Shown: in pieces, positions 24,200 through 59,949 of the stretch
Numbering within the stretch: the stretch's first letter is position 1
Layout of the letters: each line of letters starts with the position of its first letter
From: Psammoneis japonica
Taxonomy: Eukaryota
Reading direction: 5' to 3'
NCBI GenBank assembly: GCA_008632985.1
Contig: QPGO01000210.1
Span: forward strand, 14,365-78,364
Length of the DNA: 64,000 nucleotides
Position numbers and translations under genes: made by a program
The notes under the pieces: model-generated
The model's database searches: none
What the model was told of the DNA's origin: nothing
Seen by the model: the letters and a program-made list of their open reading frames with translations, nothing else

Positions 24200-24830
24200 G
24201 AAACTGCCACATTGTTTTTTTTTTTCGCCCAACAACTGAAGAGAGGTCATGCGATGCATGTGCCATAACAGAACGGCCAATGGGACAGGAAGGATGCATA
24301 AGATTCTCCAGCATAGATGCAAAAGCAAGGGTCAAGCTTGTCTGTCGTCTGGGCGCTGCTGCTGCGCAATTGTCACACCTTTCGCTGGTGCCATGCGGAT
24401 GACGACCAGGATTTCCAAGATGAATGCCACACAAAGCTTGTGTTGCACCCGCTGAGCCCTCCTGCTCTTGGCTTGTTTTTTCTCGCGTCTCGACTCGGCC
24501 GCAAAAGCACCACGACGACAATCTTCTTTCCAATTGATTGAACTGCAAAGAATGTGAACCCTCTTGTTGGTGCTGCTTCACACCACGCAGGTTTTTTGGG
24601 CTGGCTATGCCAAGGGGAGACGCATCGTACACGCATTCGCCACGGTAGTTGTGAGGTGTGTGTACTGTGGACTGGCAGCTGTTGTTGTTTTCGGTTCTTC
24701 AATTTCAAATTGCAGATGACGTGCTGGTGTTTGTGCGCAGCGGTTGCCAAGAACGAAAAATTAGCTGCTGTGGGGTGGTTGGTGTTGGGTGGGTTGACCC
24801 TTTGTGTGTATGCATTAGCATGCGATAAAC
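24200..24830. repeat. Short TA-depleted decayed tract (CpG still present)
   Basis: Very few TA dinucleotides, TG/CA-rich, no coherent ORF. It adjoins the conserved downstream flank of ELWxxDGT copy 1. Confidence 0.55.
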
Positions 24831-25099
24831 TCTTCTATGTATTACTATTGTTCTAATTTCTCGCTGCTTTTGTTGGTTCTTTTGCAGGGAATTCATGAAT
24901 CGGTAAAGGGTATACACATCATGTATTTTTATGAAAGACAACGCAGGAGCAAGTACTTTAACGCAGGGGATGCAGGTGCGTTGGTTTTTTTTTTTCGAAG
25001 CGAATGGCGCGTTTAAAATCACTGTTGAGAGCTTTTGTTGACATGTAGTTTCTTGCTGTATAAGAGAGACGTACGAATCCTGGTGCGAGTATACATCCT

Positions 25100-27283
25100 T
25101 CACTCTCCAAAATAACGGAAAGGCGTGAAACCCGATGGCTTAGACGATCCCCTGGCTGGCGAAATATTCTTGACCATCCTCGTACCTTGGGAAGTTCCAT
25201 CTGTGACCCAGAGCTCTTCGCCAAAGTCGGGACTAGATGCACTGAAGAACAGGAGATCTTGGAGAGCGACTAAATTACGAGGAGAGGATCCTTCGGCGCC
25301 CGGTCTGATATCTTTGACCATTGTAGTGCCTTCGATGCTCCCATCAGAGCGCCACAGCTCCCTTCCATGTATTCCGTCATCGGCCGAAAAGAATAGGTTG
25401 TCGCGGAACGAAGCAGATTCCCAAGGAATATAGTAGGAATAATGGACCGGGAAGACCTTGACCAGATGGGGTGATAATGATGATGTTGTTTCGGGGATGA
25501 CCACCCATAGCTCCGTTCCCTGCTCGCCGTCGTCCGCCAAGAAGAAGAGCTTTTTGCCCACCACAATCAAGCCTTTCGGTGGCGTTTGGAATGACTTTAC
25601 ACTGAAACTCTGCAATCCGTAGTGAGAAACCCTCAACTCACTTTGGCCGTGGCCGTTTTCAGCCACAAAGAAAAGAAGCCCCCCACTGTTATAGGGGTCG
25701 TACACAGTGAGCTCTCTCGGTAATGCGTACTTCTCCCCTTCAGCTATCTCCTCTGTCAGCATCCAAGCGTGCCTTCCATCGGATCTCCACAACTCCGCGC
25801 CGTGAGCCTCATCGAATGCTTGGAAGAATAAGCGGCCCCGGAATGATGTTAGCTCACTGGGGTAAGCATAATCTCCGGGCACGAGACTTGATGTTATACC
25901 ATTCTGGGTGACAAACAGCCCTTCCCACGTGCCAATAAAGAGCTTGTCGTTTACAACAGCAAACCCAGAAAAACCAGAACAGTTTTGGAAGAAATGATCA
26001 GTTCCGCCTCGCGTTCCATCCGTTACCCACAGGTCGGTTACGTAGGGCGTTGCAGTTCCACGTTTCGTCCCACCCGGCGTTTGAGTGGCAAAGTAGACCC
26101 TCTCCTTGTAGAAAGCAAAGCCGTATATACGGTGAACAGGCAAGTTAGGGTACAGATCCTTGATTATGAAAGTGCGTCTGAAGCTGCCGTCAGATCTCCA
26201 AAGCTCGACACGTTCGTTCCATGTAATAACACCGAAAATGATCTGATCTCCAAAGGGCGTCAAACTGTGCTCGATGATATATCCAGGTGAAACATCTTTC
26301 ACCATTTCTGTTCCTTCGGAGGATCCATCTGTCACCCACAACCCGCGGTTAGGAGGAATAAGAGAGAAGGCCAAAAGCGGCTTGTACACAGAAACTGTGG
26401 CACCAGCGACCTCTATGGCAGAAAAGCCCTCTTTAACAACTTCATAATAGGCACGGAAATCAAACCTCCGCTCACCCAGGTCGCCAGTCATTGTCTTTGT
26501 AATGTTGCAAAAATTCACCATCGTACGTGAAGTGAGGGAACGTGATGGACATTCCTTCCCCAGCTCTTGAGAGGCGTCAAGGTCAACGAGGCGCACAACA
26601 GTAATTGGGGAGGTCGTCAAAGCTCGAAAGAACATAGTGAAGGTGACTGAAGTGCCAATTTGGGCTACGGTCGGATTCGCTCTGACCAAAAAAGGCTTGT
26701 AAACGAAAACTGTTGCACCAGCATCCTTCATGGCAGAATACTGCCCTTCGACTTGATAATAGGCACGGAATTCAAACATACGCTCACCAACGTCGCCGGT
26801 AATTTTCTTTGTAATGCTGCATGTATGCACCATTGTAGGTGCGAGGGAACGTGATGGAAGGCCGCATTCCTGTCCCAGGTCTTCAGAGGTGTCAAGGTCA
26901 TCAAGGCCAACAATCTTGATGGGAGAGGTTGTCAGATATTTATGACGAAAGGTAATAGAGAAGTCGACTGAGGTGCCAATTCGGGCTTCAGTCGGATTCG
27001 CCCTGACCTCAAAGCCAAGAGGTGGCGCTGGCAGGGTCTCACGATGGACGGAAGGCTCCTGAGAGCATCAAATGAACGATTTTCAACAGATACGATTGAA
27101 TGAGAACACCATCGTAAAGGGATTCGTAGGCACTCGCAGTCCGGCTTGTTAGCATACCTGCTGGAGGAAATGGAGTCCTCGAAGGTGATGGGACGCCACG
27201 CCGTGCGTGTCTACCTGTCCGGTTGTGTTTTCCACGACAACGCACAGCGCAGTAACAATGAAAAGAAAAAATAGGGATGACAT
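25100..27283 (-). CDS. Secreted ELWxxDGT-repeat beta-propeller protein with two N-terminal Ig-like repeats, copy 1 (intact; intron 27059-27157)
   Basis: Exon 1 MSSLFFLFIVTALCVVV..HHLRGLHFLQQ ends at a GTATGC donor, and exon 2 is in frame with the 577-aa ORF. Repeats LWVTDGS/ELWRSDG/ELWVTDGT..GT.MVKDI. Confidence 0.9.
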
Positions 27284-27599
27284 TGTCACATTGTAATCGC
27301 ATCTCGGTTTGGCAATTTTTGTTTTTTTATGTGTTTTCTTTGTTGTGGTCGATGATCGACGACTCCCTTGCAGTCTGGCACAACATAAATGTTAAACAAG
27401 ACGATGTCCGCAGTCGTGGGAGTTTGTGTAGCAGCATGTAGGAACACTACCAGATGAAAACACGATTGCAATTAAAGACAACAAGGCCCTGTAAGTTTGC
27501 GAATGTCGCAGATGTTTCCACGACCCACGACACAAAAGATTGGCTCTGTTGACACTTGGTTGCAATTTTCTAACTTCCAATCACCATTGTTCTAAACGT

Positions 27600-30500
27600 C
27601 AAGCTTCAGTCAAAGTGTCAATGCATTGCATGTTGATGCAAAAGAGCAAACAACTTGCGTGCAGGTGATGCAGCTGCACCATGAAAATGTGCCGAGAGTT
27701 TCAAAGCCCTTGCTCATGCAAAGCTTCTTTTGGCACAAGTGTGATGGAATTGTTTCCTTGTTCCACAAGAAATGTGGCAAAGTCAGGCTTGTTGCTGGGA
27801 GCTTGCCCGCAAAGGCCAGTGGCAGGCACGCCACTGTGGTGCGACTTTGCAGCAGGACTGTCCTTGCCAAAAAGGCTTGTGCCAGCTTGTCACTTTCACA
27901 CTGCTGGGCCCAATGTAAAAGCCGTCAAAGGCAGCAGCAAAGTCATTGGTGGCTGGGGTGGCAATGCTGGCAGGAACTTTGTGCACTTGCACCAAATTTT
28001 GGGGCTGATTCATTCTTGCTTTGTGCCTCCTTCCAAGCTCTTCGCTTCCTGTTGTTGAATGACAACAGGAGGCCATGTGCCCCACATTGTCCAGGTCCAC
28101 TTTGCTGCAGCCTTGAGACAGAGCCTTGCACTCACCAGGCTCAAATTCTTTGCCACCCACAAGATGACAGTGCTCAAATCATTTGAAAAGTTGCCAAGAT
28201 GGGCAACAGCTGAAGTGGGGCAAGTTGTGGCATTGGCGCTTCCAGCACCTTTGGGAAGCTTTTGAACAACACAAAGAAGTGCCTGGGGTTGGAGCTCTCC
28301 TGAGTTGCTGCAAGAGCCTCCTCACTCACTTGGTGTTGGAACACTCTTGTGGTTTGAGGCAATTTTGGCAGGGCAGACAGACAGCGATGCAGCAAAGATC
28401 GCCAATGATGGCCTGTGATGATGATGAGGGTTTGCACCAACAAATTCCAAAGAATGCTGATTTTTGGCTTTTGCGTCAGGTTGACATGGCAACAGCATGG
28501 AGAGTGTGGTTGCAAGCCATTCAGCAAGTTTTGGAGTTGTTGCAGAGTTGGTTGACAAAACCTTGAAGCTCCAACACAGGAGCCAAAAAGAGGCACAAAG
28601 TCTGGGAAGTCAAGGGGGAAATCCAAGGGAAGGCTGAGAAGCCAAAGGAATGGAAAGTGAGGTGGGATCCAAGGTTTGTTGCTCCAGTTGAAGGAGTGGC
28701 TGGGTGAACTTTTGTGTTGCCCTGGCTTGGGGAGCTTCTGGCACCTGCAATCTCTGGAGGGTCTTTGCCAGGACCAAGCAGCAAGCACCCACTGAAAGAG
28801 GGTGTGGCAACATTGTGTCAGGATGGCAACAATGTGCACAAGAAAATGGTCAAGTGCAGGGGCATGAAAGATTTGAGGGAGTGGGTGCATGACATGGGAT
28901 GACAGGCAGATGGTTGCATGTGGAGAGCATGAAGAAGACAAGTGAGTGCATTGGAAGAGTGTTTGGACCAGAGATGCAAGCGTTGGTGTCTCCGAGGCAA
29001 GAGAACAGTCCAAAGGAGCCAGAGCATCTGTCAGAGTTGTCTGCATCAGAGAAGGACAAGACTGTCTGGGAGAAATGGTGCAGCTGCTGCATGAAACAGA
29101 GGGCATGATCCACAAGACACAGAAGGCAAAGGCACTTGACACAATCATGGGACAGCATGCAAAGGGTGTCCATCACAAGGTCAAAGGAGTGACAGATTTT
29201 GCAAAGGTTGCAAAGAAGTGGGGTGTGGCAGTGCTGTCAGACATTCTCAAGTTGATCTTGTTGGATGCAAATGAGAGACTTCACCCTGGGTGTTGCCACT
29301 TGCAGCAAGAATTGCAGTGGCGGTCTGTTTGCACAGTGACCTCTGTGCATGTTTTGTGCTTTCATCTGTCCCTGCCACCTCCAGCCCAATCCAACTGGAG
29401 TCGGGTTGGTTGGGTTTGGGCTGGAGGTGGTGGGGACAGATGAAGGTGCAAAATGTGTGCAGAAATCACCACACAGACAGACCGCCACTGCGATTCTCAC
29501 TGCGAGTGGGGTGACACCCAACCCACATGACATTCAAACTGCAAGAGCTTGGGAGGGGCAGTTGGCGATCATTCATCAAGATGGGGAGAAGGCACTCAAA
29601 ATGTCACTGCAGTGGGCTCAGATTTTTTTTGAGATGGTGGAAGGGTCCTGCAGCAAAATTGTCCCAGAAGACATCATGCCAAGAAAGACAATGGATTCAG
29701 TGCAAATGCTGATGATCCCCAGAAGAAAAGGGTGAGACAAGCTGTCAGCAGCTTTGCCAATGGAGTGCATGCACCAAAAGAAAAGAAACTTTGGCACACA
29801 TCTTGAAAAACCTGCATTGGCTGTTTGCACTGGGGGTGGGCAACAATCCCAAGCTGGTCAAGGAGGCACTGCATGCAGGCACTGAGGGTGCATGTTTTGA
29901 GCTGGGACAGAAGAGACCAAATGCTGGAAATGTGACAAAGCTGGGCACATGATGAAAAAGGGTTGTCCTTTGCTCAATGAAAAAGATGGCAACTCTCAAT
30001 GGTGGACTCAGATGAGGCTGGCCAAGGGTCTCATTGGAACAAGCAATGCAGGGGCTGGGTGGCATGGTGCCCAGTTGTCGTCCTCCTTTGGCTGGTGTGC
30101 ACAAGGTCAGCTGGTCAACAGCTTGTGTGAAGGAGTGTTTTTGAACATTGTGGTTTGAGGCAGTTTTCTGAGGATGGGTGGACAATGTTTCAGCAAAAGA
30201 TTGCTGATGATTGATGATGACATGGAGGGTCTGCATTGACAAACTCTGAAGAACATCAGTCCTGTGCTCACTTTTTTGCATCTGCGCCAGGCTGGCATGG
30301 CAACAACACAGAGAATGTTTTTGCAATCCACAGGGCAAGTTCCAGAGTGGACAGGCTAACACAAAGTTGTGTCAACACTGCTTTCTGTGAGCAGCTCTCA
30401 TCATGGTTTGCACAGCATCACTTTGAAGCAAGGCTGGTCTGTTTTTTCTTTCACACGCAACCTCACCCACCTTTGCTGCTTTGTTGCTGCAATGCAAACA

Positions 30501-33360
30501 GAGCACCAACCTTTGTTTTGATGCAACCCCACAAATGTGTTTCATGGGCCAAACGCTGCAGTGGCACCTCAGCAGTGCCATGGAGAGAGGCCACACAAAA
30601 TGTCAGAACATGGTTTCATGCTTTGTGTTTGCTGTGACCAATGCAGCGGCACATCTTTTTTTGCTGAGCCTTTTTTCAACGTTGTGGAGCATTGACAACA
30701 GTCTCCTGTTTGTTCTGTTGTGTTGTTGAGGTGTGTGCATCTTCTGCCAAAAACTGTTTGCAGATTGGACAATTGGAGCTCACAGAATGGCTGGCATGTC
30801 AAGTTGTCTTGACAACTCCACTTGCAACTCAACAATCAAACACATGCACCTCAAGCGTTGCACTTGCATCTGGTTTCTGTTGCTCAAGAAAATGTGGAAA
30901 TCTCAATCTGTGTGGTGGGGTGGACATGCATCAGATTCGATTGAAACAAAAAAGCTCTCTTTCAGCAACACTGAGCAGCACAGCACTTTTCACCTTAAAA
31001 AAATGGTTCATTGTCAGGATCTTTTTTTATGAAGTCAATCCCCAGTGCAGCACTGCAAGGTTGTGTTGAGTGCAGCTTCTGCAGCAGCTTTGTGAAAAAC
31101 CTTGTGTCTTGTTGCTGAGTCAAGTCCTGCTTTTTTGTGTGCAAAGCAGTGTCTTTCTTGCATCTTGCACATGCCTGAGAAAGGCATCAACCTTCACACA
31201 CCTCACTTTTGAAAAAGGGTTGTCCTCCATGTGCGCTTTTCTTGTGATGCTGCATTTCTTTTCCAGCAAAGTGACAGGGTTGTTTTCCCATTTTGGTGCT
31301 GAAAACACCTCTTGGCTGTGGCAGTCAATCTTGCAGTGATTGCATTGAGAACAGAAGAGTCCTCAGAAGCAGCTCTCACCAAAAGTTAAGTTGTGGCAAC
31401 CAAGATGTGGAGCCAAGTCAGGCTGACTTGCTCCAGCCAACTGGGCCCAATTGCTCAAGTGCTTTGTCACTCTGCAAGCCATGGCTCACCTTCTGTGTGC
31501 TCTCCCCCCTGCTGTGACCCAGCCAGCCCAATGTGTGTGCAGCTTGACAGCAGGATCCACCTTGAGGGAAAAGGAAAAAGGCTGTGGAGACAAAAGCCAA
31601 GAAGGGGCAGCAGAGCTGAGTTGCTGAAAGAGCTGCATGGCGTGCGCAGCCACAGTGTAGAACAATCAGGGGGGAGGATGCTCTTTTTTCCAAAATTGCC
31701 CACTGTTGTGAAAGCGTGCAACTTTGCATGTCACATGCCATTGCAAACAGGGCACTGCCAGAACATGAGCTTGCACTTGTGAGCACCACAGAAATGTGCC
31801 ACAATCAGGTGTTGAAGGGGGCAATTGGATCTGAAAAATTTCTGTTTTTTAGATTTGAGTTGCAAGCGCCAACTCTCAGCACAAACCACTTGCACAACAT
31901 GACCCACCATGCCACAATGCGCCATTGCTCTTGAGTGTGCTGTGATGCACCAGACCTGCCTCCTCTGCCTCTTGGATGGCACTGAACTCATTCTTGTTCT
32001 TGTGTTTGACAACGTGGGTGTCCACATCATTGTTGTTTGCGGCAAGCAATGAAGATCATTTGTCTCAACTTGCTGGTGTGCTCATTTTGTCAATGCAACA
32101 TTGCACAAGTTTGCTCTGAGCTCTGGGCTGTTTGTCCAAGAATCCTGAACTTGTCATGGATCCTTCTCTTGGCAAAAAGGCTCGTTGCACTTGTTTCAGC
32201 ATGTGTGACAAAGCTTTCAGCATTGGTGGCTTGAAGCCCTGTTGCTCTTCATGCTTTCTTTGTTTTTGTTTCTTGCCCCATGTGCCTTTGAATTTCTGAT
32301 GTGCTTTGTGAGACACAGCTGCAAATCTGCAATTTTGGAGTTTCTGGCTGGCATTGCCCACAAGCTTGTTCAAGGAATTTGTGCAGATCTGGCCAGATGA
32401 ACGGGTTGTGTGTGTCTTTCTGTAGCCTCTTTTTTTGTTGAACACATCATTCTTGTGGTTGGAGTCTGATGGCATGAAATGCTTTTTGATGGGTGCCAAC
32501 ACAGTGCCTTCCTCTTGTGGCACTCACTCACAGCTGTTGTTGGAAACACCCACATCACAGAGGGTTGTTGCTGCAGTGCCAGTTGAGGCTGTCATTCTCT
32601 GGCATGAGGAGAGCAAGCAACCTCACCCACATTCAACAGTCATCGGCCTTTTTCATTTCAGCATCTGTGGATTGTGAGTTCACATGCAGCAGCAGCCAGA
32701 ATCACCAATGCATGGCTTGTTTGCCAAGCTGATTTGGCAATTGTCATGACAAGACTTGATTCTTGTCTGCCATGCCAGTTCACTGTGTGAGACCATTTTG
32801 TTGTCATTCTGCAACTCGCACATCTGGTGACAGCAGCAACACTCAGCTGCTTTCTCTCATGTGCAAAGAAGACACAAAAGGTTTTAATCTCCACCATCAC
32901 TTGTTGACACAGTCATTTGATCTGTGTGGCATTGGTCTGCAAGGCATTGGCAGTGGAGCAGAGCTTGGAGAAAAGGGAGACCTGATCCCTTCAGGACGTT
33001 GCTTCAGCAATTGCCCAGCAGTGCACATTTCCAGCTGCAGGCCATTTCAGTTTCAGATTTCCATGGGCGTGGAGAAGCCCAAACATCCTTCACCTGCAGA
33101 GGGAAGATCTTTTTTGAGTTGATGAATGCAACCGAAGTGCAGAGTTGTGCAAGGATGAAGGGGCTTCCCTCCTCAGTGCTGCTGGGCACAATTCCGTCGT
33201 TGTTGATGCTTTTTCGCGTGACTCAACACCTGATTGTGGTGGGTGTCCACAACACATTTCCCTTGCCACATGGGCACCGCAGACCGGAAGAACTTCCATA
33301 GCACAAAAATCTGTGGATGGGCGGGCAAGTTGCCACCGAACAAAACGACCGGTCTGCTGC
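27600..33360. repeat. Heavily decayed repeat/TE-derived tract, almost devoid of TA and depleted of CG
   Basis: TG/CA-saturated sequence giving spurious Cys/His/Gln-rich, nearly Tyr-free ORFs in all frames. The first ~350 bp are homologous to ~59960-60390. Confidence 0.75.
29287..29520. repeat. Imperfect inverted repeat (arms ~110 bp, short spacer)
   Basis: GCAGTGGCGGTCTGT...TTCATCTGTCCC..CCACCTCCAGCCCAA is mirrored by TTGGGCTGGAGGTGG..GGGACAGATGAA...ACAGACCGCCACTGC. Confidence 0.85.
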
Positions 33361-39989: not shown

Positions 39990-42900
39990 GCACTGGTGCT
40001 ACTACATGTTGTATTGTGGGAGTTTGGTCTGCTGGATGGTGGACGGACGGCAAGGTGAAAAAATTGTCAGCAGCTGCCACAGCTGCTGGAGCAGTTTTCT
40101 TCCTTCTTGCGCCTTTTCCCACTTCCAATTTGGCATCCACTGAAATCACAATGATGTCATGGCTAGTTGGCATGGGCTGCAGCAAAATCAACAAAGGCAA
40201 TGAGTCAATTGGTTTTGACAGTTGCGGCAGCAAAGTTGTTGTCAACAGACGGAGCTTTTGCTTTTGAAAGTCTGCAGCATTGCAAGCAACAACAAACAAA
40301 AGCACCCAGATCACTGCAATTTCTGTCAGCCTGCCTGCATTGGCTCCCACCCAAAACTTGGCAATGGACAACACAAGCAAGCATTTGAAATGTGTGGACA
40401 AAACTCATCCTCCAGCGGCCAAGCAATCAATTGTTTGGTTTCTCTTGCAGCGTGTTCTTGAAAGTTCTTCAAAAGATGGCTGTCAAGGGCCAAAACTCTT
40501 CAAAGAAAGCTGTTGGCCTCATGCCAGTGATGGCAAGAAACTTGAGATGGGGTGCTCCTGTCAAGCCAGACAATGTCAGAGAACCAATGGGCGAAGCAAA
40601 GGTTGGCAGTTGGCAAGACTGTTGCAGAACGCTGGGGCAAGAAAAAAGCTCTGACCTCAAGCACAGCAAAGATTTTCAAGCTGGCACATCAGGAACACCA
40701 ATGATCTGGGTGTCGCACCTCCCATCAAGATTTTTTGAGTTGCAGCCAGGCAATTTTTTTTTAACCCAATGTCCAAGACTGCACCAATTTGTCCAGCCCA
40801 CATTTGTGTGAAACACTCAACGACAAACGCCTGCATTCCTGAAGTCAACATTTTCTCTGCCACATGGACAAGACTGCAGCATGATTTGTGTCATGTCAAT
40901 TCCTGAGTGAGGTGTTGCCTGCTTTCCTGGATCAAAATCTCTTCAGCCGTGCATCAAGCTGGAGATTCTCTTCCTTGCTCCAAATTTTTTGCTCCCTGTT
41001 GTTGCCATTCTCTGTTTTTGTGTGATGCCCCTGGCATTGCTCTTCCTCATTTGTCTTGACAGCACAGCATCTTTTGGCCCCACTCTTCACCAAGTGATTG
41101 CTGTTCAGTGTGATTGACATTTGCTTTCATTGCAGCGGCCTTGCTGTTTCTCCAAAGTGCTTTGCAGAGGGTGCAGTCTGATGATGGTCTCATTTGTCCT
41201 TGGTGCAAATGTTCTGGGTTCAGCTCCATGTGTGTGGTCTTAGCCGGCACACCCACACAATGCCAGCTGTCTCTGTTCTGTGGGTCCAACCAAGTCTTTC
41301 AGTTGTCCACATTGTGGACAATGTGGTTTTGACTCCAAAAGCCAGGTGCAGCATCACCTTTCTCATCACTGCCACACATCTGCTGTTCTCCCTTTTTGCC
41401 AGGAACACACTTGCACTCAAGGACTTGATGCCATCTTGTCCAACAACTGCACTGGGGAATCCCGTTGGAGAAAGGACACATGAGATTCTCTGCCATGGAT
41501 GCAAGAGCAAGTGTCAAGCTTTTCCATCATCTGGGCCATTGCTGCACAAGTCATTGCACACAGCAGGCTCCCTGCCTTTTGCTGGCACCATGCAACCAAC
41601 TGCCAGAGTGGGGCCTTGCAAGGACAGTCCTGAAAGTTCTGGGCTGCCGGCAGCCTCAAACGTTCCCGTGCATTGCATCAAACGTTCCCACCATGCCCAA
41701 AGGAAGATGCGCGCAAGATTTGAATTCCCTCCAATGTGCCGGGACCGTGCTGCTGTTGCTTCAAATGCAGTTGCATCTCCAACAAACACCACAAACCGCA
41801 GCAACAAACCATGAGCTGCCCATGTGCTTCATCTGCTGCTTCACTGCTCAAGGGTGCTGAAGAAAATGATGCAATGCCAGCAAAACATGCTGAAAGATGT
41901 CCAGAGCACATTGAACAGTGGGGAGAAAGCATCACAGCAGAAGTTGAAAGAAGTTGTCAGCAAGCTCAAAGTTGTTGAAAATGGCCTTTCCATTTTGCAA
42001 GTGATGATGAAAGGAGCAACTGTGACAGCAGCTCATGCCACTCATCTCCCCAACAATCAGTGCGTCCACAATCGTTTGAACAGTGAAAAAGCCCACAAGA
42101 AGCAAATGCAAGAGAATGTGAGCAGGAGCCAATCACAAGAATCAAAAGCTGCCAGCCCCAAATGTCCATCCAATTCCCTTGCTGTGCTGGAGGATGTGTG
42201 CCAAAGTGTGAACAACGAAGAAAATCAACCACCGAAGCCTCGACCTCCCCAGAATTTCACCTGCTGCAAAGCCCAGAGTCGCAGCTGCAGCACCACAAAG
42301 ATCTCCCAAAATGACACAGGCAATGTTGTGTCTTGGACAATGATGACAATGCGGTCGAAGAGCAGGTGGAAAGGGTCAAAAAGGACCAGAGGACAACTGC
42401 ACGCGTGAACGAGAGACGCACAAAAAAGGCTCATGAGGAGGTGTGCAAGTTTCTCATCAAAACAAGTCCAGTGCTCAAGCAGTTGCACCATGCTCACAGG
42501 ATTGCCTTTTTTGGACTACGATGAGACTCTCTGACAAATGCCAACATTGCAAGTGTCCTCCAGGCTCCATCGCGTCATTTTGTTCCCACAGCATGCACTT
42601 TCCAAATGTTGCGACACAGCCGAAAAATGACGTGGCATGATTGTGCACCGACCAAGTCCCCAAGAAGGACATCAAGCATTTCAAAAAACCATCTTAACAT
42701 GCATGACAGGTGAGCCAAATGACGCAGAGTGGGGCGAGGCATGGGGCTCCCAAATGGACACACTGTGGTGGTGCAAATGCCACGAAAAAGATGCCAACAC
42801 CACCCACGCAACAATCGACTGCACGAGATGATCAACCCACCTGTGAAGCTTTGACAAAGTGCAAACAACATCTTTGGTGAGCATGCAATTGGTGTAAAAT

Positions 42901-43260: not shown

Positions 43261-43497
43261 CAGCGGTACGACAGCATTAGAGGGAATTCATGAATCGGTA
43301 AAGGGCGCACATGTATTTTATGAAAACCAACACAAGAGCAAGTACTTCCACGCAGTCGATGCAGATGCGTTGGATGCTGTTTTTCCGATGCAATGGTCCA
43401 ATTGATGCCACTGTCAAGAGCTTATAGAGGTTTTGTTGATATGTAGCTTCTTGCCGTATAAGAGAGACGTTCGAATCCTGGTGCGAGTATGCATCCC

Positions 43498-45687
43498 TCA
43501 CTCTCCGAAATAACGAAGAGGGGTGAAACCCGCTGGCTTGGACGATCCCTCGCCGGGCAAGATATCCTTGACCATCCTCGTACCTTGAGAAGTTCCATCT
43601 GTGACCCATGGCTCTTCGCCATAATAGGGACTAGCTGCACTGAAGAACAGCTGATCTTGGAACACGACTAAATTTCGAGGAAAGGATCCTTCGGCGCCCG
43701 GTTTGATATCTTTGACCATAATAGTGCCTTGCCTGCTCCCATCAGAGCGCCACAGCTCCCTTCCATGTATGCCATTATCGGCCGAGAAGAATAGGTTATC
43801 GCGGAACGAAGCAAATTCCCTCGGAATAGAGTGGGAATGATGGCCCGGATCGGAGCCACTGAATCCGCTGTTTATGTCCTTTACCAGATGGGTTGATGCT
43901 AATGTCTCGGGGGTGGTCACCCACAGCTCCCTTCCAAGTTCGCCTTCGTCTGCCGAGAAGAAAAGCTTTCTGCCTGCCACAGTCAAGCCTTTAGGTGGCC
44001 TTTGGAACGACTTTATGCTAGAACTGTAATGTCCTTGATGAGTGACCCTCAACTCATATTGGCCTTGGCCGTTACCGGCCACAAAGAACAGAACCCCCCC
44101 AAGATGAGAGTGGTTATACACAGTGAGCTCTCGCGGTAATGAGCCCTTGCGGCCTTCAGCTATGTCCGTCATCCTCCGAGCGCGACTTCCATCCGAACTC
44201 CATAACTCCCTGCCGTGAGCGCTATCGAATGCTTGGAAGTATAAACGGTCCTGGAATGATGTTAGCTCACGAGGCGTATAACCATACGCATAGTCTCCGT
44301 TCACGCGACTTCTTGTTCTGTCATTCTGGATGACCCACAGCCCACTGTACGCCCCAAAAAAGAGCTTGTCGCCAACTACAGCAAACTCAGAAAAGCCGGA
44401 ACAGTTGGGCTTGAAACGTTCAGTTCCACCTTGCGTTCCATCTGTTACCCACAGATCAATGAAAGAGGTCTGAGAGTTAGAGGCAGCGGCAAAGTAGACC
44501 CTGTCCTTGAAGACGGTGAAGCGGACCGGTATGGAAATGCCTGGGCCTGGGTAGAATCCTTGACCATGACAGTACCTTTGGCGCTGCCGTCAGATTTCCA
44601 GAGCTCGGCACCATTTCTACCATTACCAGCGAAAATGATCTGATCTCCAAAGGACGTCAATGTGTGATCCAGTAGGCCGCCATGTGAGATATCTTTCACG
44701 AGTTTTGTTCCTTCGGAGGATCCATCTGTCACCCACAACCCGGGTCCTCCCACACCATTACTGGCAGAGAAGGCCAAAAGCGGCTTGTACACAGAAACTG
44801 TGTCACCAGCGACCTCTATGGCAGAAAAACCCTTTTTTACAACTTCATAATAGGCACGGAAATCAAACCTACGTTCACCCAGGTCGCCAGTTATTGTCTT
44901 TGTAATATTGCAAAAATTCACCATCGTAGGTGAAGTGAAGGAACTTGATGGAAGAGGGCATTCCTTTCCCAGGTCTTCCGAGGTGTCAAGGTCGACGAGG
45001 CGAACAACCCTAATTGGAGAGGTCGTCGCATATCGAAAAAAGATGAAGGTGACTGAAGTGCCAATTTGTGCTACGGTCGGATATGCCCTGACAAAAACAG
45101 GCTTGTAAACGAAAACTGTTGCACCAGCATCCTCCATGGCAGAAAACTGCCCTTCGACTTGATAGTATGCGCGGAATTCAAACCTACGCTCACCAACGTC
45201 GCCAGTCATTGTTTTTGTAATGTGGCATGTATGCACCATTGTAGGTGCGAGGGAACGTGATGGAAGGCCGCATTCCTGTCCCAGGTCTTCAGAGGTGTCA
45301 AGGTCATCGAGGCCTACAATCTTGATGGGATAGGGCGTCACATATCTATGACGAAAGAGGATAGAGAAGGTGACGGAAGTGCCGATTTGGGCTTCAGTCG
45401 GATTCGCACTGACCGCAACGCCAAGAGGCGGTGCTGGCAGGGTCTTACGATTGACGGCAGCTTCCTTGACAGCATCAAATGGACGATTTTAACAGATACG
45501 ATCGAATGAGAACACCGTCGTAAAGGGATTCGTAAGCACTCAGTCCGGCTTGTTCGCATACCTGCTGGAGGACCTTCAGTCCTCGAAGGTGATGGGGCGC
45601 CACGCCGTGCGTGTCTGCCTGTCCGGTTGCGTTTTCCACAACAACGCACAGCACGATAACGAGTGATAGAAGAAAGAGGGAGGACAT
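43498..45687 (-). CDS. ELWxxDGT-repeat protein, copy 2 (frameshifts at ~44540 and ~44310)
   Basis: Collinear with copy 1: signal exon MSSLFLLSLVIVLCVVV, the same intron donor, Ig-like repeats, ELWSSDG/ELWRSDG and the C-terminus RYFGE. Confidence 0.85.
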
Positions 45688-45829
45688 CGTCACATTGCAA
45701 TATCTCGTTTTTTTTTTCATTTGTGTGTTTAATGATCGGCGACATCCCTTGTTGTGGTCTGGCACAATAAATGTTCCGATGCCACGATTGCAATTAAAGT
45801 CAATGAGGCCCTGCAAGTTTGCGAATGAC

Positions 45830-48800
45830 TCCTCGCATCCCGAAAGATCTGCATGTTGCCATCACGCGCGACATGTCAGAAAAATGCGCGGCTGCTGCGC
45901 AGTTTCGCAAGATGTTTTGCTCGAACATCCATGACCTCACAATGAGACAGCAGCGCTTTACCTGCACCACCGCTGTTGACGATGGGCACCATCACAATGT
46001 CCCCTGCTCTGCCCCCACTTCTGCTGCTTCTCATTGTGGTGCTGCAATGTTGTGCCAGCTCACCTTGACAGTGCACTTTGGCGCACAGCATCTGGCTGCT
46101 GCCTGCGTGCGGTGTGCAAGAAAACGACATGGCGGGCAAAGCCTTCCCTCCCAGAAAATGAAGCAGAGGGCACCAGAATCAAGTCACAAGGAGAGCGCAA
46201 GATTGGCATCAGGGGAAATGGTGAAGCGGCCCCCAAAAAACTGCGCAGATCTGCCGCAACAACAAAGCGCAGCTGCGGGAGCTCTGGGCAGCTGCCTCGC
46301 TTGCTGAGTCAATGGCCGGCGGGATTGACAAACAGTTTTTGATGTCAGTGCACAGGGGGGGGTGCAGTCTGGTGGCANTTGCACCTCTTTCCTCAAGTCT
46401 TTGTCTCACAAAGATGCCGCAAGCTGGGGAGGGTCGAGGCTGCTCTGCAGCCCACGAGAGCTGCTGTCCATGTCAGAGGCGCCCTTGCCGCCGGCACAAG
46501 CCAGTGCAAGCTCTGTGGACAAGCTCCATCTGCCTGTCTGCTGCCTGCCCATGAACCTGCCAAATCAAGTGCTGCGACCAGCACTGCAGAGCCTTCAAGG
46601 GCACATGAAAAGCTGGGCCTGAAGCTCTGCGGTGCACTGGGCAGGGCTTCAGCCCCAAGCGATGTGCCTTTGGACTTTTTTCTTGTTTGTGAGCTGGTTC
46701 TTTGTCCAAAAAAGCTTTGTTTGTGCACCCATGCTGGCAGTTTTTTGAAGCTCTTTTGAAGGGCTGGCTTGAGAGTGTGCTGAATTGGAAACGGTGCGAA
46801 GCCACACAACAACCTTGCTCTGCCTGGAGCTGGAAAGCACCGCTGCCTCCATCTGCCTGTCTGCTGCCGGTCCATCAGCCTGCTCAATCCAAGCATGCAT
46901 GGTGATTGTCCCTTGTGTCAACAAGGGCTGTGGCCAGCACTGCAGAGCCTTGAAAGGCACATGGAAAAGCTGGGCCCCAAGCTCTGTGGTGCACTGGGGG
47001 CAGGGCTTCAGCCAGCCCCAAGTGAGGCAGGTGCCTTTGGACTTTTTTCTTGTTTGTGAGCTGGTTCTTTGGCCACAAAAGCTTTGTTTGTGTGCCCATG
47101 CCAGCAGACTTTTGAAGCTTTTGAAGGACTGGCTTGAGAGTGAGCTGTGTTGGAAATGGCGCAAAGTCGCGCAACCTTGTTCTGCCTGGAGCTGGAAAAT
47201 GCTGTTGGAGCTGCAAGCCACCTGCTTCCTTTTGCTGCTCAAGAGAAGCCACAGACCCAGAGACAGAGAAGCCCACAGCAGTTTTGACCCAAGCCTTCCG
47301 GGGTTCGGCATCAACCATGGGGCCACGCATGGAGCAGGTGGGCCTCAGAGTGGTGCTGGCCTTTGTGCAGCCCTTGTTGGGGCTGGAAGCAACAAGCTCA
47401 TCTTGTGGGGTGTTGCGCTGTGGTGGGCAGAGTGCACGTGGCAGGTGTCATGCCACAGCCAAGTTTGTCACCCTGCCACTTCTCTTTTGGCTGGTGGTTC
47501 TTGGGTTCTTCAGCACACAGTCATTTCTGTGGCCCTGGCTGCATCTGCTTTGACAACTGCAGCAGTTGTTCCCTCTGTGGCACAGAGCACCAGTGTGGGC
47601 TCTGGTGGAGTGTGCTCTTGAGAGCAGCGGCCACTTTTGTCTTGCACTTTGTGGGGTTGACCAGTTGTTTGTGATGTGCAAGGAGGGCCAGCATGAATTT
47701 GGCTTCTTCTGGGGGGCAGCTTGAGCCCCAACATCCCTGTGCTTCAAATGCCATCAGGAGGCTGTGCTGGTTCTTTGAAGGTCTTCTCAGCAAGAGCGTG
47801 CTTGAGCACAGCATCTCATGTGTTGTGCAAGCAAAGGTGCTGCCAGTCTTGCTTGCTGCTGCAATCAGCAGCAGCTGGGAAAAGCCCTGACATCATCTGA
47901 GATCGGAGGTTGTTGGCACACACCTGTGGAGACAGAAACAGCTTCCCAAAGCCATGCCAGAAGTGCCCCAAATCACAAAAACAAAACATCATCCAAGGTC
48001 AGACATTGAGCTGCCATTGTTTGTCATGCAGGGCTGCAAGCATCTCTTTCAACACACGTGCAAAAGCTGGACAGCTTGGTCATCACAGAGTTTCTTGGCA
48101 GTGTCCTCCAGAAGGCCACAGCTCCACCTTTTGTCCTCTGCCTTCAATCCAAAGCACAAAGCTTCAAGCCAGGCAAACTTCTTGGTGACAAGCACACTGT
48201 CACCAAGTTGGGCAACTTTCTCTCATGTTGGGAAGCTCTCAAGATGCTCCTCTTGGATCAACCCAGACTGGTGCCACTTTGCTGCAATGCCCAGCTGGGG
48301 CAGCTTGGCATGGAGAGGCAACACTTGGTTGACAAGATTTGTCACTTTCTTTTGGGCTCACGCTGAAGCAGAACTCCACCAAAGCAAAACACAGCCACAC
48401 GCAGAGCATGATTCAAAAACAGACAGGCTCCCGGAGGGGGGGGGGGAGGCAACAAGTGTTGCTGTCTTGGCATCCCGCCCACCCCTCTTTTTGAGTGGGA
48501 TTCTTTGCACCCCGTTTTCTTCTGTGTGCTGCTTGCTTGCTGCAGACTTTTGTTTGTGCTGGCAAAAGCATCTGGTGGGTGTGACCACACAAATCCAAAT
48601 TGCAACTTTTGAGCTGAGCACCACAGAGAGAACAGTCCCTTGATGTCCCAAGGCACCATCTGGCAAAATCAGCACATGAGATGGACCATCTCCAAATGTT
48701 GCTTCTGGCAGCCAGACAATCTTTGTGTTGCACTCACTGCAATGCAGTGCGCCCATTGCCCACCACTTCACTTTTTCATTTTTCTCAACATCTTGTGTTT

Positions 48801-50584: not shown

Positions 50585-50792
50585 TGTTTAAACACTCAAA
50601 AGCAGATCAGCAGCGGCAGCTGGTGATGACTGGTGAGTGTTGGGGCGATCAAACAGGTGTTGCAATGACAGCTGTGGCAAAATTGTGAGGATGTGAGAGG
50701 CTCCTCGTCTCTCATTGAAGACCGATGTTCATGAGTCATTTTTGGGACAGTGAGTCATAATGCAATGACGCATGAAATATGACATCTTCACA
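50585..50792 (-). repeat. 3' LTR (208 bp)
   Basis: Direct repeat of 56661-56867, adjacent to the PPT TGAGAGGGAG (minus strand). Confidence 0.95.
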
Positions 50793-50861
50793 CTCCCTCT
50801 CATTTTGATCTCATGCATCTCAAAAATGAAGGTTTGACGCACTTTGCGCGCGAATCCACTT

Positions 50862-55010: not shown

Positions 55011-55326
55011 GGTCCACCCTCGTCGTACCCGGTGCCATCTCTTCCGTTTCGGCGTGCATCCGGGCTTGTCAGTTGGGGTCGGTCGCGTAGAAGTAAATGT
55101 AGATCAGGACCATCGCTGTCGACAGTAAAATTAGAGCATGAGCTAGCAGCTTTTGTTCAATCACTCGTTTGTTTTCAAATGAGAGCGACGTCATTATAAT
55201 GGTCATGTGGTTGCAGGCGAATGCCTGCCAGGCGAAGAGCGCAGTTGCCTTGATGATCGCAAAACACTTCGACGCCATGGTTTCCAACCCATGTCCATCA
55301 CAACCGCTGCAGCCGTGCTCAAGGAG

Positions 55327-56638: not shown

Positions 56639-56645
56639 GTTACTC

Positions 56646-56660
56646 AGCGCAGAGGAAGCG
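56646..56660 (-). other. Putative primer-binding site complementary to the D-arm of initiator tRNA-Met
   Basis: The + strand AGCGCAGAGGAAGCG(TG) directly abuts the 5' LTR and resembles eukaryotic tRNA-iMet GGCGCAGCGGAAGCGUG (recalled from memory). Confidence 0.65.
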
Positions 56661-56867
56661 TGTTTAAATCTCAAAAGCAGATCAGCAGCGGTAGCTAGTG
56701 ATGACTAGCAAGCATTGGGGCGATCAAATAGGTGTTACAATAACAGCTGTAGTAAAATTGTGAGGATGTGAGAGGCTCCTCGTCTCTCATTGAAGACCGA
56801 TGTTTATGAGTCATTTTTGGGACAGTGAGTCATAATGTAATGACGTATGAAATATGATATCTTCACA
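56661..56867 (-). repeat. 5' LTR (207 bp)
   Basis: Direct repeat of 50585-50792; retains most TA sites. Confidence 0.95.
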
Positions 56868-59626: not shown

Positions 59627-59949
59627 TGTCACATTGTAGCAGCATCTCGGTTTCGCAATTTTTGTTTTCTATGTGCTATGTTTGTTGTGGTCGATGATCG
59701 GCGACCTCCCTTATGCAGTCTGGCACAATAAATGTTAGACAAGACAATGTCCGCCGTCGCGGGACTTCTTGCAGCACCAGTAAGAACACTGCCAGATGAA
59801 AACACGATTGCAATTAGAGACAATGAGGCCCTGTAAGTTTGCGAATGTCTCGGATGTTTCCACGACCCACGACCCACGACACAAAAGATTGACTCCATCG
59901 CTTGGGTGCAATCTTCTCATTTCTAATCACCATTGTTCCAATCGTCAAG

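What the first reader, a model, noticed from the sequence alone, without database searches (positions are those of the whole stretch)
27600..33360. Multi-kb TA-free, CG-poor domain with sharp edges against normal genes
Seen in sequence: TA almost vanishes from ~27600 to ~33360 and returns at the FG-GAP gene's 3' end and in the ELWxxDGT upstream region. The same holds for 39990-43260, 45830-50584 and 59950-64000. Domain cores lack both TA and CG, whereas the edges (e.g. 24200-24500, 42900-43100, 45830-46300, 50400-50560, 56880-57150) keep CG but lack TA. Inference: two processes converge on TG/CA, with TA conversion reaching further or acting faster than 5mCpG deamination. TA depletion would then be a sequence-encoded map of heterochromatin.
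Basis: partly seen in the sequence, partly recalled or inferred. Interest (0 to 1): 0.8.

Follow-up and report, generated by a model that had tools for sequence, protein, structure and literature searches.

The report
TpA-erasing hypermutation tracts in a diatom
Several multi-kilobase stretches of this diatom-like genome have had almost every TA, and most CG, turned into TG or CA by mutation acting on the DNA in place, a kind of targeted hypermutation so far reported only once, in an unrelated alga.

Summary
Four blocks (27594-33298, 40013-42894, 45830-50588, 59925-64000) have TA o/e 0.02 and CG o/e 0.20, against 0.56 and 0.94 elsewhere, with edges under 100 bp wide. The TG+CA surplus (1367) matches the TA+CG deficit (1439).

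Direction and timing come from internal clocks:
- The two LTRs of a Copia element (50585-56867), identical at insertion, differ at 14 substitution sites. All 14 are TA versus TG/CA or TG versus CA. All 5 CpGs are intact.
- The Copia polyprotein has lost 15 of 27 conserved tyrosines to Cys or His (TAY to TGY/CAY).
- An inverted repeat and the paralogous blocks D1/D4 carry many TG-versus-CA sites.

So a TpA-specific A:T>G:C process acts on integrated DNA and is faster than CpG decay.

It is not duplication-dependent. Three ELWxxDGT paralogues next to the blocks are untouched, and D3 and the left of D4 are single-copy.

D1 and D4 hold relics of a PEP synthase gene. D2 and D3 are unidentified.

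The host is a diatom by its proteins. The same signature was described in 2026 in the chlorarachniophyte Bigelowiella natans. My five literature searches found no diatom report.

The link to heterochromatin or methylation and the enzyme could not be tested.

The parts
27594..33298 (.). Block D1: TA-free, CG-poor tract filling the space between ELWxxDGT paralogue A and the FG-GAP gene
   Evidence: 9 TA and 49 CG in 5705 bp; deficit 487 against TG+CA surplus 470
27716..28325 (-). Relic of the C-terminal (PEP-binding) part of a PEP synthase gene, at the left end of D1
   Evidence: tblastn with full-length PEP synthases; own HMM of 106 family members hits 27716-27838 at E 5e-8; paralogous to the D4 relic
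29296..29509 (.). Inverted repeat, 97-nt arms with a 20-nt spacer, decayed almost only by transitions
   Evidence: 76 identical, 20 transitions, 1 transversion; 7 TG-versus-CA sites
40013..42894 (.). Block D2: TA-free tract with intermediate CG; right edge keeps CG up to about 43060; origin unknown
   Evidence: 5 TA and 50 CG in 2882 bp; deficit 221 against surplus 218; no Pfam or NCBIfam hit
45830..50584 (.). Block D3: TA-free tract that starts where homology to ELW units A and B ends (about 45828). Its left 500 bp and right 370 bp keep CG. Origin unknown.
   Evidence: 2 TA and 81 CG in 45960-50588; junction comparison; single-copy depth 47-67; 3 of 3 listed differences from the run's contigs are CpG versus TpG/CpA
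46566..47198 (.). Two-copy tandem repeat inside D3 (84% identity)
   Evidence: 5 TG-versus-CA sites against 0 GT-versus-AC
50585..56867 (-). Full-length Ty1/Copia LTR retrotransposon inserted into the right edge of D3. TA is partly erased and CG kept. The 1413-aa pol ORF is open but has lost conserved tyrosines.
   Evidence: RVT_2 E 2.4e-40; LTRs and TSD ACAGCA at 50579-50584 and 56868-56873; 15 of 27 conserved Tyr changed to Cys/His; 99 TA against 206 expected
50585..50792 (-). 3' LTR of the Copia: heavily hit (3 TA left)
   Evidence: 12 sites TG/CA here against TA in the other LTR; 2 sites TG here against CA there
56661..56867 (-). 5' LTR of the Copia: nearly spared (15 TA), a TA-rich island between depleted DNA on both sides
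59925..64000 (.). Block D4: TA-free, CG-poor tract, cut by the window end; paralogue of D1
   Evidence: 8 TA and 29 CG in 4076 bp; D1-D4 transition-tolerant local score 355 against nulls of 146 or less
60049..61032 (-). Relic of a PEP synthase gene (C-terminal third, frameshifted) at the left end of D4
   Evidence: Pfam PEP-utilizers_C 24.2 bits; NCBIfam NF005057 E 1e-8, with a second frame at E 1.3e-4; PDB 2ols E 3.7e-5; 109 library hits; tblastn; HMM E 2e-18
24800..27593 (-). ELWxxDGT paralogue A with its upstream region: ordinary TA and CG, not affected (context)
43280..45828 (-). ELWxxDGT paralogue C with its upstream region: not affected (context)
   Evidence: 79.5% and 81% identity to A and B
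57170..59924 (-). ELWxxDGT paralogue B with its upstream region: not affected (context)

Best explanation
These tracts are the end state of a regional, TpA-specific A:T>G:C hypermutation of nuclear DNA. Each TpA becomes TpG (A>G on one strand) or CpA (A>G on the other). On older tracts, ordinary CpG>TpG/CpA decay is superimposed.

Shown:
- The direction is TA>TG/CA.
- The process acts after integration, on DNA already in the chromosome.
- It hits both strands about equally.
- It runs at least two orders of magnitude faster than other substitutions, and faster than CpG decay.
- It stops within tens of bases at the borders of neighbouring genes, at homologous positions in paralogous copies.
- It does not need sequence duplication.
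- It cannot create stop codons, so dead elements keep long ORFs.

Inferred:
- The targets are transcriptionally silent DNA: a Copia retrotransposon, decayed PEP synthase pseudogenes and unidentified spacer DNA. Diatom transposons are known to carry CG methylation and H3K9/H3K27 methylation.
- The chemistry is enzymatic deamination of adenine to hypoxanthine at TpA in DNA, by an ADAT2/TadA-like or other deaminase, as proposed for Bigelowiella natans.
- The CG loss reflects 5mC deamination in a narrower or slower domain.

The confidence given is for the shown part together with the silent-DNA reading. The deaminase chemistry alone I put at about 0.45.
For: 1. LTR clock. The two LTRs share the TSD ACAGCA, so they come from one insertion. 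In about 200 aligned nt, all 14 substitution sites (16 of 16 differing bases) involve TA. Twelve are TA in the 5' LTR against TG (5) or CA (7) in the 3' LTR. Two are TG against CA. All 5 CpGs are intact in both LTRs. There is no other substitution apart from one indel-associated difference at the LTR start.

2. Outgroup polarity.
-, 60 homologues: at 27 columns with Tyr conserved at 80% or more, the window's Copia has 10 Cys (TGY) and 5 His (CAY), against 1.13 Tyr changes per homologue. It also has I>M x4 (ATG), V>A x3 (GCA), and K>E x2, T>A and I>V each behind a T.
-, 120 homologues: the window's copy scores 14 of 28. Of the homologues, 119 of 120 score 4 or less.

3. Other genomic copies. 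Forty of 605 differing positions were listed. The 34 that lie in the Copia make 27 sites. Of these, 12 are TA against TG/CA, 7 are TG against CA, 5 are CG against TG/CA and 3 are other.

4. Paralogous blocks D1 and D4. TG-versus-CA sites number 34 against 3 GT-versus-AC controls in 753 aligned dinucleotides. The adjacent unaffected flank gives 6 against 3 in 2468.

5. Inverted repeat: 20 transitions, 1 transversion, 7 TG-versus-CA sites.

6. Mass balance: deficit 1439 against surplus 1367.

7. Not duplication-driven. The ELW paralogues and their promoters are 85-95% identical up to 27640/59988 and keep normal TA. Identity then drops to about 65% inside the blocks. D3 and the left of D4 have single-copy depth.

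8. Precedent (abstract, Results and Discussion read). In B. natans mutation-accumulation lines, 230 of 231 mutations in two integrated viral regions were A>G or T>C. All of these fell on TpA, at about 1000 times the background rate. The genome holds 124 TpA-poor, CpA+TpG-rich clusters.
Against: - No methylation, chromatin or expression data, so the link to silent chromatin is inference. Support comes from another diatom, P. tricornutum (passages of PMC4504042).
- No genome is held, so no deaminase candidate could be sought and the genome-wide extent is unknown.
- D2, D3 and most of D1/D4 have no recognisable origin. None of the 111 ORFs of 80 aa or more has a family hit, apart from a PEP synthase match to two of them at the left end of D4 and one weak sub-threshold hit. 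'Foreign or silent DNA' is therefore shown only for the Copia.
- The 5' LTR is spared although it lies between depleted DNA on both sides. A simple spreading model does not explain this.
- Transversions and indels are also raised inside D1/D4 relative to the flank. Part of the block divergence is therefore plain neutral decay, or gene conversion has kept the flanks alike.
- The signature is rare among sampled relatives: 1 of 65 environmental Copia loci and 1 of 120 database proteins.
Confidence: 0.77

Rival explanations
1. Error-prone repair synthesis. Repeated patch repair in silent or methylated chromatin, for example after T:G mismatches from 5mC deamination, is filled in by a polymerase-eta-like enzyme. 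That enzyme's known hotspot is WA with A>G outcomes (recalled from work on somatic hypermutation). No adenine deaminase is involved.
For: TA loss and CG loss occupy the same domains. A>G at TA is part of the WA signature (recalled, not tested).
Against: AA is not depleted in the blocks (o/e 1.29 against 1.18 elsewhere), so the target is TA rather than WA. In the Copia and its LTR, TA loss is massive while no CpG has changed, so TA loss does not depend on preceding CpG deamination.
Confidence: 0.1
2. Methyl-adenine route. The palindromic TpA is N6-methylated in these domains, as CpG is 5-methylated, and loss of the methylamino group gives hypoxanthine. Both losses would then be decay of methylated palindromic dinucleotides.
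For: Both lost dinucleotides are self-complementary YR steps, and both end as TG/CA with balanced books. The domains are nested.
Against: No evidence for 6mA at TpA in diatoms was seen in any call. Known eukaryotic 6mA sits at ApT (recalled). The Copia shows that the two losses are separable.
Confidence: 0.05
3. RNA editing before integration. ADAR-like A>I hyperediting of double-stranded transcripts is fixed by reverse transcription.
For: ADARs prefer a 5' U (as cited in the preprint's Discussion). One target is a retrotransposon.
Against: The LTRs of one insertion are made identical by reverse transcription, yet differ at 14 TA sites. The PEP synthase relics, an inverted repeat and the tandem and segmental duplicates, none of them retroelements, decayed in place after duplication.
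Confidence: 0.03
4. Artefact. Modified bases in these domains were misread during sequencing or polishing, and the true DNA has TA and CG.
For: The window's sequencing technology is unknown. The window holds a single N at 46378.
Against: Contigs built from reads with exact 31-mer depth of about 52-67 reproduce the blocks with 0-7 differences per 1-5.4 kb. That run may, however, be the window's own source. The blocks also show frameshifts, indels and transversions typical of real decay. Two unrelated records from elsewhere, L069 and P0180, show the same signature.
Confidence: 0.03
5. Intrinsic composition or selection. The tracts came from a source that avoids TA and CG, or TA is selected against, for example as a transposon or nuclease target.
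For: None beyond the composition itself.
Against: Four internal clocks show TA being lost in place: the LTRs, the inverted repeat, the tandem repeat and the D1/D4 paralogues. Conserved tyrosines were destroyed, which selection for function would oppose.
Confidence: 0.02

Closest known systems
TpA hypermutation of integrated viral DNA in Bigelowiella natans (Mettrop et al., bioRxiv 10.64898/2026.01.13.699255; abstract, Results and Discussion read; supplements closed)
   Same: Exclusive TpA>TpG/CpA transitions on both strands. Confined to discrete regions. Rates far above background. Long-term TpA-poor, CpA+TpG-rich clusters that include reverse-transcriptase and DDE-transposase ORFs and many unannotatable sequences.
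   Different: The host here is a diatom (stramenopile), not a chlorarachniophyte (rhizarian). Depletion here is saturated (o/e 0.02), against Rho 0.45 for the NCLDV region there. The targets shown here are a Copia element and PEP synthase pseudogene relics, and no viral gene was recognised. CpG loss is superimposed here, whereas the word CpG does not occur in that text. Here the evidence is comparative, there experimental.
Repeat-induced point mutation (RIP) of fungi
   Same: Regional, dinucleotide-specific transition hypermutation of DNA that kills transposons in place and leaves sharp compositional domains.
   Different: Opposite chemistry and direction. RIP makes TpA from CpA by C>T, whereas here TpA is destroyed by A>G. 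RIP needs duplication, whereas here 85-95% identical paralogues are untouched and single-copy DNA is hit. RIP creates stop codons, and this process cannot.
CpG decay of methylated DNA (vertebrate type); CG methylation of diatom transposons
   Same: CG o/e of 0.2 with a TG/CA surplus in the block cores. Three of 3 listed polymorphisms in D3 are CpG against TpG/CpA.
   Different: It explains only about 55% of the TG/CA surplus: the expected CG deficit is 805 of the total 1439. It does not explain TA loss. Methylation itself was not measured.
APOBEC/AID and ADAR hypermutation of viruses and retroelements in animals
   Same: Deaminase-type, context-specific transitions used against mobile DNA or RNA.
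   Different: APOBEC/AID act on C. ADAR acts on dsRNA. Here A:T pairs in chromosomal DNA change after integration.

Membership tests
TpA-targeted A:T>G:C regional hypermutation (B. natans type) | Mutations fall on TpA and give TpG or CpA | tested here: met
   All 14 LTR substitution sites. Fifteen of 27 conserved Tyr changed to Cys/His, with TGY/CAY codons. Nineteen of the 27 sites formed by the listed variant rows among Copia copies. 34 TG-versus-CA against 3 control sites between D1 and D4.
TpA-targeted A:T>G:C regional hypermutation (B. natans type) | Confined to discrete regions, at a rate orders of magnitude above the local background | tested here: met
   Edges under 100 bp. In the LTR pair, 16 of 34 TA sites changed against 0 other substitutions in about 2 x 200 nt. 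A rate per generation cannot be measured here.
TpA-targeted A:T>G:C regional hypermutation (B. natans type) | Long-term footprint: clusters of TpA-poor, CpA+TpG-rich 1-kb windows | tested here: met
   Four tracts of 2.9-5.7 kb with TA o/e 0.02 and TG/CA about 1.8.
TpA-targeted A:T>G:C regional hypermutation (B. natans type) | Targets are of foreign origin (virus, transposon, bacterial-like) | tested here: inconclusive
   Copia: yes. D1 and D4 hold relics of a PEP synthase gene whose origin is not established. D2 and D3 are unidentified.
TpA-targeted A:T>G:C regional hypermutation (B. natans type) | De novo occurrence in cultured lines; ADAT2-like deaminase as candidate enzyme | not testable with these tools
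   No genome is held, there are no line data, and the only runs are contigs of one sample.
Fungal RIP | C:G>T:A transitions that create TpA | tested here: not met
   The direction is the opposite.
Fungal RIP | Dependence on duplicated sequence | tested here: not met
   The ELW paralogues and promoters, 85-95% identical, are not mutated. D3 and the left of D4 are single-copy at 80% likeness or more.
5mC-driven CpG decay | CpG deficit matched by TpG/CpA gain | tested here: met
   CG o/e 0.20. The books balance once the TA deficit is added. Three of 3 listed D3 variants are CpG transitions.
5mC-driven CpG decay | Cytosine methylation of the region | not testable with these tools
   No bisulfite data or raw long reads are available.
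ADAR-type RNA hyperediting fixed by retrotransposition | Changes made before integration, so both LTRs carry the same edits | tested here: not met
   The LTRs differ at 14 TA sites, and one TSD flanks both.
Ty1/Copia LTR retrotransposon (the element at 50585-56867) | Paired LTRs beginning TG and ending CA, a target-site duplication, and gag-pre-integrase and RVT_2 domains in Copia order | tested here: met
   LTRs of 208 and 207 nt at 91% identity, TSD ACAGCA. RVT_2 E 2.4e-40, and a weak gag_pre-integrs match (20.8 bits, below the family's 28.4 cut-off). 50-60% identity over 89-99% of its length to the 120 listed Copia-type polyproteins, the named ones from diatoms.

The most novel reading that the evidence does not exclude
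Diatoms have a DNA-level adenine-deaminating genome defence aimed at TpA, shared by descent with the chlorarachniophyte system. That would make it old within the SAR supergroup. It would be guided to silent chromatin or to transcription-unit borders rather than to repeats. It would erase every TpA of a transposon or pseudogene within a time too short for any other substitution to occur. It would leave a permanent, sequence-encoded map of past silencing that can be read from any assembly. Surviving TpA are enriched in TTAA (9 of 24 against 3.7% elsewhere), which would be a first hint of the enzyme's wider sequence preference.
Probability: 0.35. Interest if true: 0.9.

Novelty: new member of a known kind. 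Interest (0 to 1): 0.72.

Why it matters
Targeted A:T>G:C hypermutation of chromosomal DNA has one report so far, a 2026 preprint on one rhizarian alga. Its enzyme and targeting rule are unknown.

- A second case in a diatom shows that the process is not a peculiarity of one species. Diatoms are a major and genetically tractable group of phytoplankton.
- This case gives cleaner natural experiments. The LTR pair proves post-integration action. The three paralogous gene-plus-block units show that borders are set at homologous positions and not by duplication. The partly mutated Copia still holds 99 TA to watch.
- It affects annotation. The process cannot make stop codons, so dead transposons and pseudogenes keep long ORFs rich in Cys and His and poor in Tyr, and these will be called as genes.
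- A simple TA-against-CG scan of assemblies would find further hosts. If the chromatin link holds, it would also give a proxy map of long-term silencing.

Tried and rejected
Origin of the blocks
- Pfam and NCBIfam scans of all 111 stop-to-stop ORFs of 80 aa or more in the blocks gave only the PEP synthase relic in D4, plus one weak IER hit below its cut-off.
- A purine/pyrimidine-alphabet dot plot of each block against the whole window on both strands (200-nt windows, 74% or more) showed no relation among the blocks or to the Copia. It found only the inverted repeat at 29296-29509.
- An HMM of 121 Copia polyproteins against all six-frame ORFs found no Copia relic in any block.
- An HMM of 106 PEP synthase fragments found nothing significant in D2 or D3.
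- Transition-tolerant local alignment of all block pairs cleared the nulls only for D1-D4. The D1-D3 reverse-strand score of 174 proved to be a long alignment at 44% identity and was rejected.
- tblastx gave weak colinear D2-D4 and D3-D4 hits (E about 3e-4). These were not taken as evidence.

Other searches
- Rfam at gathering threshold: 0 matches in the window.
- Strand bias: TG and CA are balanced in the blocks (1929 against 1951), and local skews follow the A-T skew. In the LTR, the TG and CA changes form 5 runs where about 8 are expected. This is only suggestive.
- No whole genome is held. Earlier findings of this scan: none.
- The ESM Atlas look-up of the DUF389 protein gave no useful taxonomy.
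- No RNA holder is listed among the sequencing runs, so nothing can be said on expression.
- X2 and X3 cover little or none of the stretch.

Literature
- Five full-text searches found no report of TpA depletion or TpA hypermutation in diatoms or other stramenopiles.
- The preprint's supplementary tables are closed and may hold context data.

Full report
OBSERVATION

A sliding 500-bp count shows four tracts in which TA almost disappears (0-3 per window, against 14-40 elsewhere). CG falls there to 1-12 per window, against 20-35 elsewhere. G+C stays near 0.49, and TG/CA rises to an o/e of 1.7-2.2.

Exact positions give these tracts:
- D1, 27594-33298.
- D2, 40013-42894, with a CG-keeping tail to about 43060.
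- D3, 45796/45830-50588, with one TA at 45959.
- D4, 59925 to the window end.

The longest TA-free runs are 2954 and 2441 bp. The mean TA spacing in the rest of the window is about 27 bp.

Pooled over the blocks, TA o/e is 0.02 (26 sites in 17.3 kb), CG 0.20, CA 1.83 and TG 1.77. The rest of the window gives 0.56, 0.94, 1.17 and 1.19.

45960-46500 has 0 TA and about 22 CG. 50216-50588 has 0 TA and 17 CG. 32997-33350 has 13 CG. 24314-24606 is TA-free with 15 CG.

The missing TA and CG reappear as TG and CA. The deficit is 1439 and the surplus 1367. Each block balances on its own: 487/470, 221/218, 376/334 and 353/343.

HOST AND SURROUNDINGS

The window is gene-dense with long uninterrupted ORFs. 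Pfam finds:
- a protein of six HA domains;
- a PPR protein;
- two family-3 GPCR pairs;
- a DUF389 protein;
- an FG-GAP protein;
- two Copia-type reverse transcriptases.

The DUF389 protein's best named relatives are diatom proteins: Seminavis robusta at 49% identity, then Attheya, Cylindrotheca and a Bacillariaceae MAG. Its best hit of any kind has 53% identity. The Copia polyprotein's named relatives are from Chaetoceros, Cylindrotheca and Fragilaria. The host is therefore a diatom whose own proteins are not in the searched collection. No whole genome is held.

THE COPIA ELEMENT AS A CLOCK

A full-length Ty1/Copia element lies at 50585-56867 on the minus strand. It has LTRs of 208 and 207 nt and the target-site duplication ACAGCA on both sides. 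It is inserted into the right edge of D3.

LTRs are identical at integration. Here they differ at 14 substitution sites, and all 14 involve TA. Twelve are TA in the 5' LTR against TG (5) or CA (7) in the 3' LTR. Two are TG against CA, which needs an ancestral TA hit independently in both. All 5 CpGs are intact in both LTRs. No other substitution is present beyond one indel-associated difference at the LTR start.

With 17 inferred ancestral TA per LTR, 16 of 34 TA sites have changed. None of 10 CpG sites and none of the remaining roughly 2 x 170 bases have. The process therefore acts on integrated DNA, is TA-specific, and runs at least two orders of magnitude faster than background and faster than CpG decay.

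The 3' LTR keeps 3 TA and the 5' LTR keeps 15. The change-over sits at the inner border of the 5' LTR, near 56660.

POLARITY FROM OUTGROUPS

I aligned the 1413-aa pol ORF with 60 homologues. It differs at 52 of 583 columns conserved at 80% or more. Fifteen of these lie at the 27 conserved tyrosines, giving 10 Cys (TGY) and 5 His (CAY). Homologues show on average 1.13 Tyr changes, mostly to Phe.

The other excess changes are those TA>TG/CA predicts: I>M x4 (ATG), V>A x3 (GCA), and K>E x2, T>A and I>V each with a T before the codon.

With 120 homologues, the window's copy scores 14 of 28 and has 1.2% Tyr, against 3-4% in typical homologues.

TA>TG/CA cannot turn a sense codon into a stop. TAA becomes TGA or CAA, and TAG becomes TGG or CAG. 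The open 1413-aa frame is therefore no sign of activity. The same property explains the 111 ORFs of 80 aa or more found in 17.3 kb of blocks.

OTHER COPIES IN THE SAME GENOME

Contigs of a public run were laid on 45000-64000 at 80% likeness or more. Depth is about 47-67 over D3 and 63 over the left of D4, which is the single-copy level. The summed depth over the Copia is 360-840, so it belongs to a multi-copy family.

Forty of 605 differing positions were listed, and 34 of them lie in the Copia. They make 27 sites:
- 12 are TA against TG/CA, in either direction;
- 7 are TG against CA;
- 5 are CG against TG/CA;
- 3 are other.

All 3 listed differences in D3 are CpG against TpG/CpA.

The same contigs reproduce the block sequences with 0-7 differences per 1-5.4 kb. 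This argues against a base-calling artefact, although the run may be the window's own source.

WHAT THE BLOCKS WERE, AND THE PARALOGY

Two adjacent, frameshifted ORFs at the left end of D4 match PEP synthase:
- Pfam PEP-utilizers_C, 24.2 bits;
- NCBIfam NF005057, E 1e-8 for profile positions 655-732 and E 1.3e-4 for positions 757-795;
- PDB 2ols, E 3.7e-5;
- 109 library proteins at E of 0.001 or better.

tblastn with full-length family members places a relic at 60049-61032(-) in D4. A second relic lies at 27716-28325(-) in D1. An HMM of 106 family members confirms both, at E 2e-18 and 5e-8, and finds nothing significant in D2 or D3.

D1 and D4 are paralogues within a larger repeated unit. The ELWxxDGT gene occurs three times, and each copy has a TA-free block on its upstream side:
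- A at 24800-27400;
- C at 43280-45775;
- B at 57170-59740.

Between A and B, identity is 85-95% through the gene and its upstream region up to 27640/59988. It then drops abruptly to about 65%, with many indels, inside the blocks. The drop lies within about 50 bp of the TA borders at 27594 and 59925. In unit C, homology ends at about 45828 and D3 begins there.

Inside the blocks, D1 and D4 differ by 34 TG-versus-CA sites against 3 GT-versus-AC controls in 753 aligned dinucleotides. The flank gives 6 against 3 in 2468, and there TA against TG/CA (13+13) equals its control AT against GT/AC (15+10). Much of the conversion therefore happened independently in both copies after the duplication. It stopped at the same homologous border and spared equally duplicated neighbouring DNA.

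An inverted repeat in D1 (97-nt arms) shows 20 transitions, 1 transversion and 7 TG-versus-CA sites. A tandem repeat in D3 shows 5 TG-versus-CA sites against 0 controls.

D2, D3 and the remainder of D1 and D4 have no recognisable origin.

MECHANISM

Shown:
- a TpA-specific A:T>G:C change on both strands (TG 1929, CA 1951 in the blocks);
- it acts in chromosomal DNA after integration;
- it is regional, with sharp and reproducible borders;
- it is independent of duplication;
- it is faster than CpG decay;
- it is separable from CpG decay, because the Copia has TA loss alone.

Inferred:
- The targets are silent DNA. In P. tricornutum, Copia elements carry H3K9me2/3, H3K27me3 and DNA methylation and are mostly untranscribed (passages of PMC4504042).
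- The chemistry is adenine deamination to hypoxanthine. This was proposed for B. natans with an ADAT2-like candidate.
- Stramenopile-specific deaminase-SAM-Tudor proteins (passages of PMC3239186) are further candidates.
- The CG-poor cores would be the older or methylated part, and the CG-keeping edges and the Copia the younger or unmethylated part.

Unexplained: the 5' LTR is spared, as is a cluster of 9 TA at 55026-55197.

The surviving TA of the blocks are enriched in TTAA. They make 9 of 24, against 3.7% of TA elsewhere. The TA in TTTAAA is also kept in both LTRs.

COMPARISON WITH WHAT IS KNOWN

The closest precedent is the B. natans preprint (abstract, Results and Discussion read; supplements closed).
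- 230 of 231 mutations in two integrated viral regions were A>G or T>C, and all of these were at TpA.
- The rate there was about 6e-7 per site per generation, against 3.5e-10 elsewhere.
- The genome holds 124 TpA-poor, CpA+TpG-rich clusters.
- The text does not mention diatoms, stramenopiles or CpG.

Fungal RIP works in a similar way as a genome defence, but it fails both defining tests here: direction and dependence on duplication. ADAR-type editing before integration is excluded by the LTR asymmetry. A polymerase-eta-like WA signature is disfavoured because AA is not depleted (o/e 1.29).

SPREAD

Among 120 database homologues, one (P0180, from an ENA assembly) has the same signature. It has lost 17 of 28 conserved Tyr to Cys/His and holds 1.06% Tyr.

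Of 76 environmental Copia loci, 65 cover 10 or more conserved Tyr columns. One of these, L069 from a microbial-mat metagenome, shows the signature:
- 5 of 10 conserved Tyr changed to Cys/His;
- TA o/e 0.16, CG 0.98 and TG/CA about 1.4-1.5.

The other 64 do not show it. The peptide patterns used for that search favour intact copies, so the frequency is a lower bound.

VERDICT

The finding is real, strong and biologically interpretable. It is a second, independent and more extreme instance of the newly described TpA hypermutation, in a diatom, with CpG decay superimposed. The heterochromatin link is plausible but untested.

Noticed in passing
window 4446-5966 (-), repeats 4536-5431: An HA-domain protein (Pfam HA, E 1e-123, six stretches) is built of 201-bp tandem units 90-93% alike. 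It holds only 3-9 TA per 500 bp, with normal CG, and the few TA recur with the repeat period (4603/4642, 5008/5047, 5209/5248, 5410/5449). This may be low TA copied with the unit, or mild exposure to the same process..
   Followed up: partly
window 24800-27400, 43280-45775, 57170-59740: Three paralogues of the ELWxxDGT-repeat gene (79-81% DNA identity overall). Each has a TA-free block on its upstream side. Copy C is split into two overlapping ORFs (43498-44589 and 44445-45488), as is copy B (57454-58785 and 58758-59675)..
   Followed up: partly
window 1-2373 (+): The 3' part of a second, distant Copia pol (33-37% identical to the full element) is interrupted at about 850-1690 by an AT-rich stretch (G+C 0.35, TA o/e about 1.0). 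TA o/e is only 0.18 in 1-500..
   Followed up: no
L069 (whole locus, 4773 bp) and protein P0180: Two unrelated records from elsewhere carry the same 'TA lost, CG kept, Tyr to Cys/His' signature in a Copia pol. L069 is from a microbial-mat metagenome and P0180 from an ENA assembly..
   Followed up: partly
blocks D1-D4; LTRs at 50585-50792 and 56661-56867: The surviving TA are enriched in the TTAA context: 9 of 24 in the blocks, against 3.7% of TA elsewhere. TTTAAA is kept in both LTRs. This may reflect a wider sequence preference of the process, or newly arisen TA..
   Followed up: partly
window 61654-61688 (inside D4): Many contigs of run X1 end or begin here with unlike continuations, and the summed depth rises to about 212 in 61484-62117. 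A short piece is probably shared with other loci of the genome. One search, tables 2 and 7.
   Followed up: no
window 12464-14727 and 18807-21079: A duplicated pair of family-3 GPCR genes (ANF_receptor plus 7tm_3), 71% identical at DNA level, with ordinary TA and CG..
   Followed up: no
window 15700-18000: A G+C-rich (0.58-0.60), strongly G- and T-skewed internally repetitive region with overlapping 600-760-aa ORFs on both strands and no Pfam match. CG o/e is 0.5-0.8..
   Followed up: no
window 46378: A single N inside block D3..
   Followed up: no
window 55026-55197: A cluster of 9 retained TA in 170 bp around the start of the pol frame, between the gag-like and pol ORFs of the otherwise TA-poor Copia body..
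   Followed up: no
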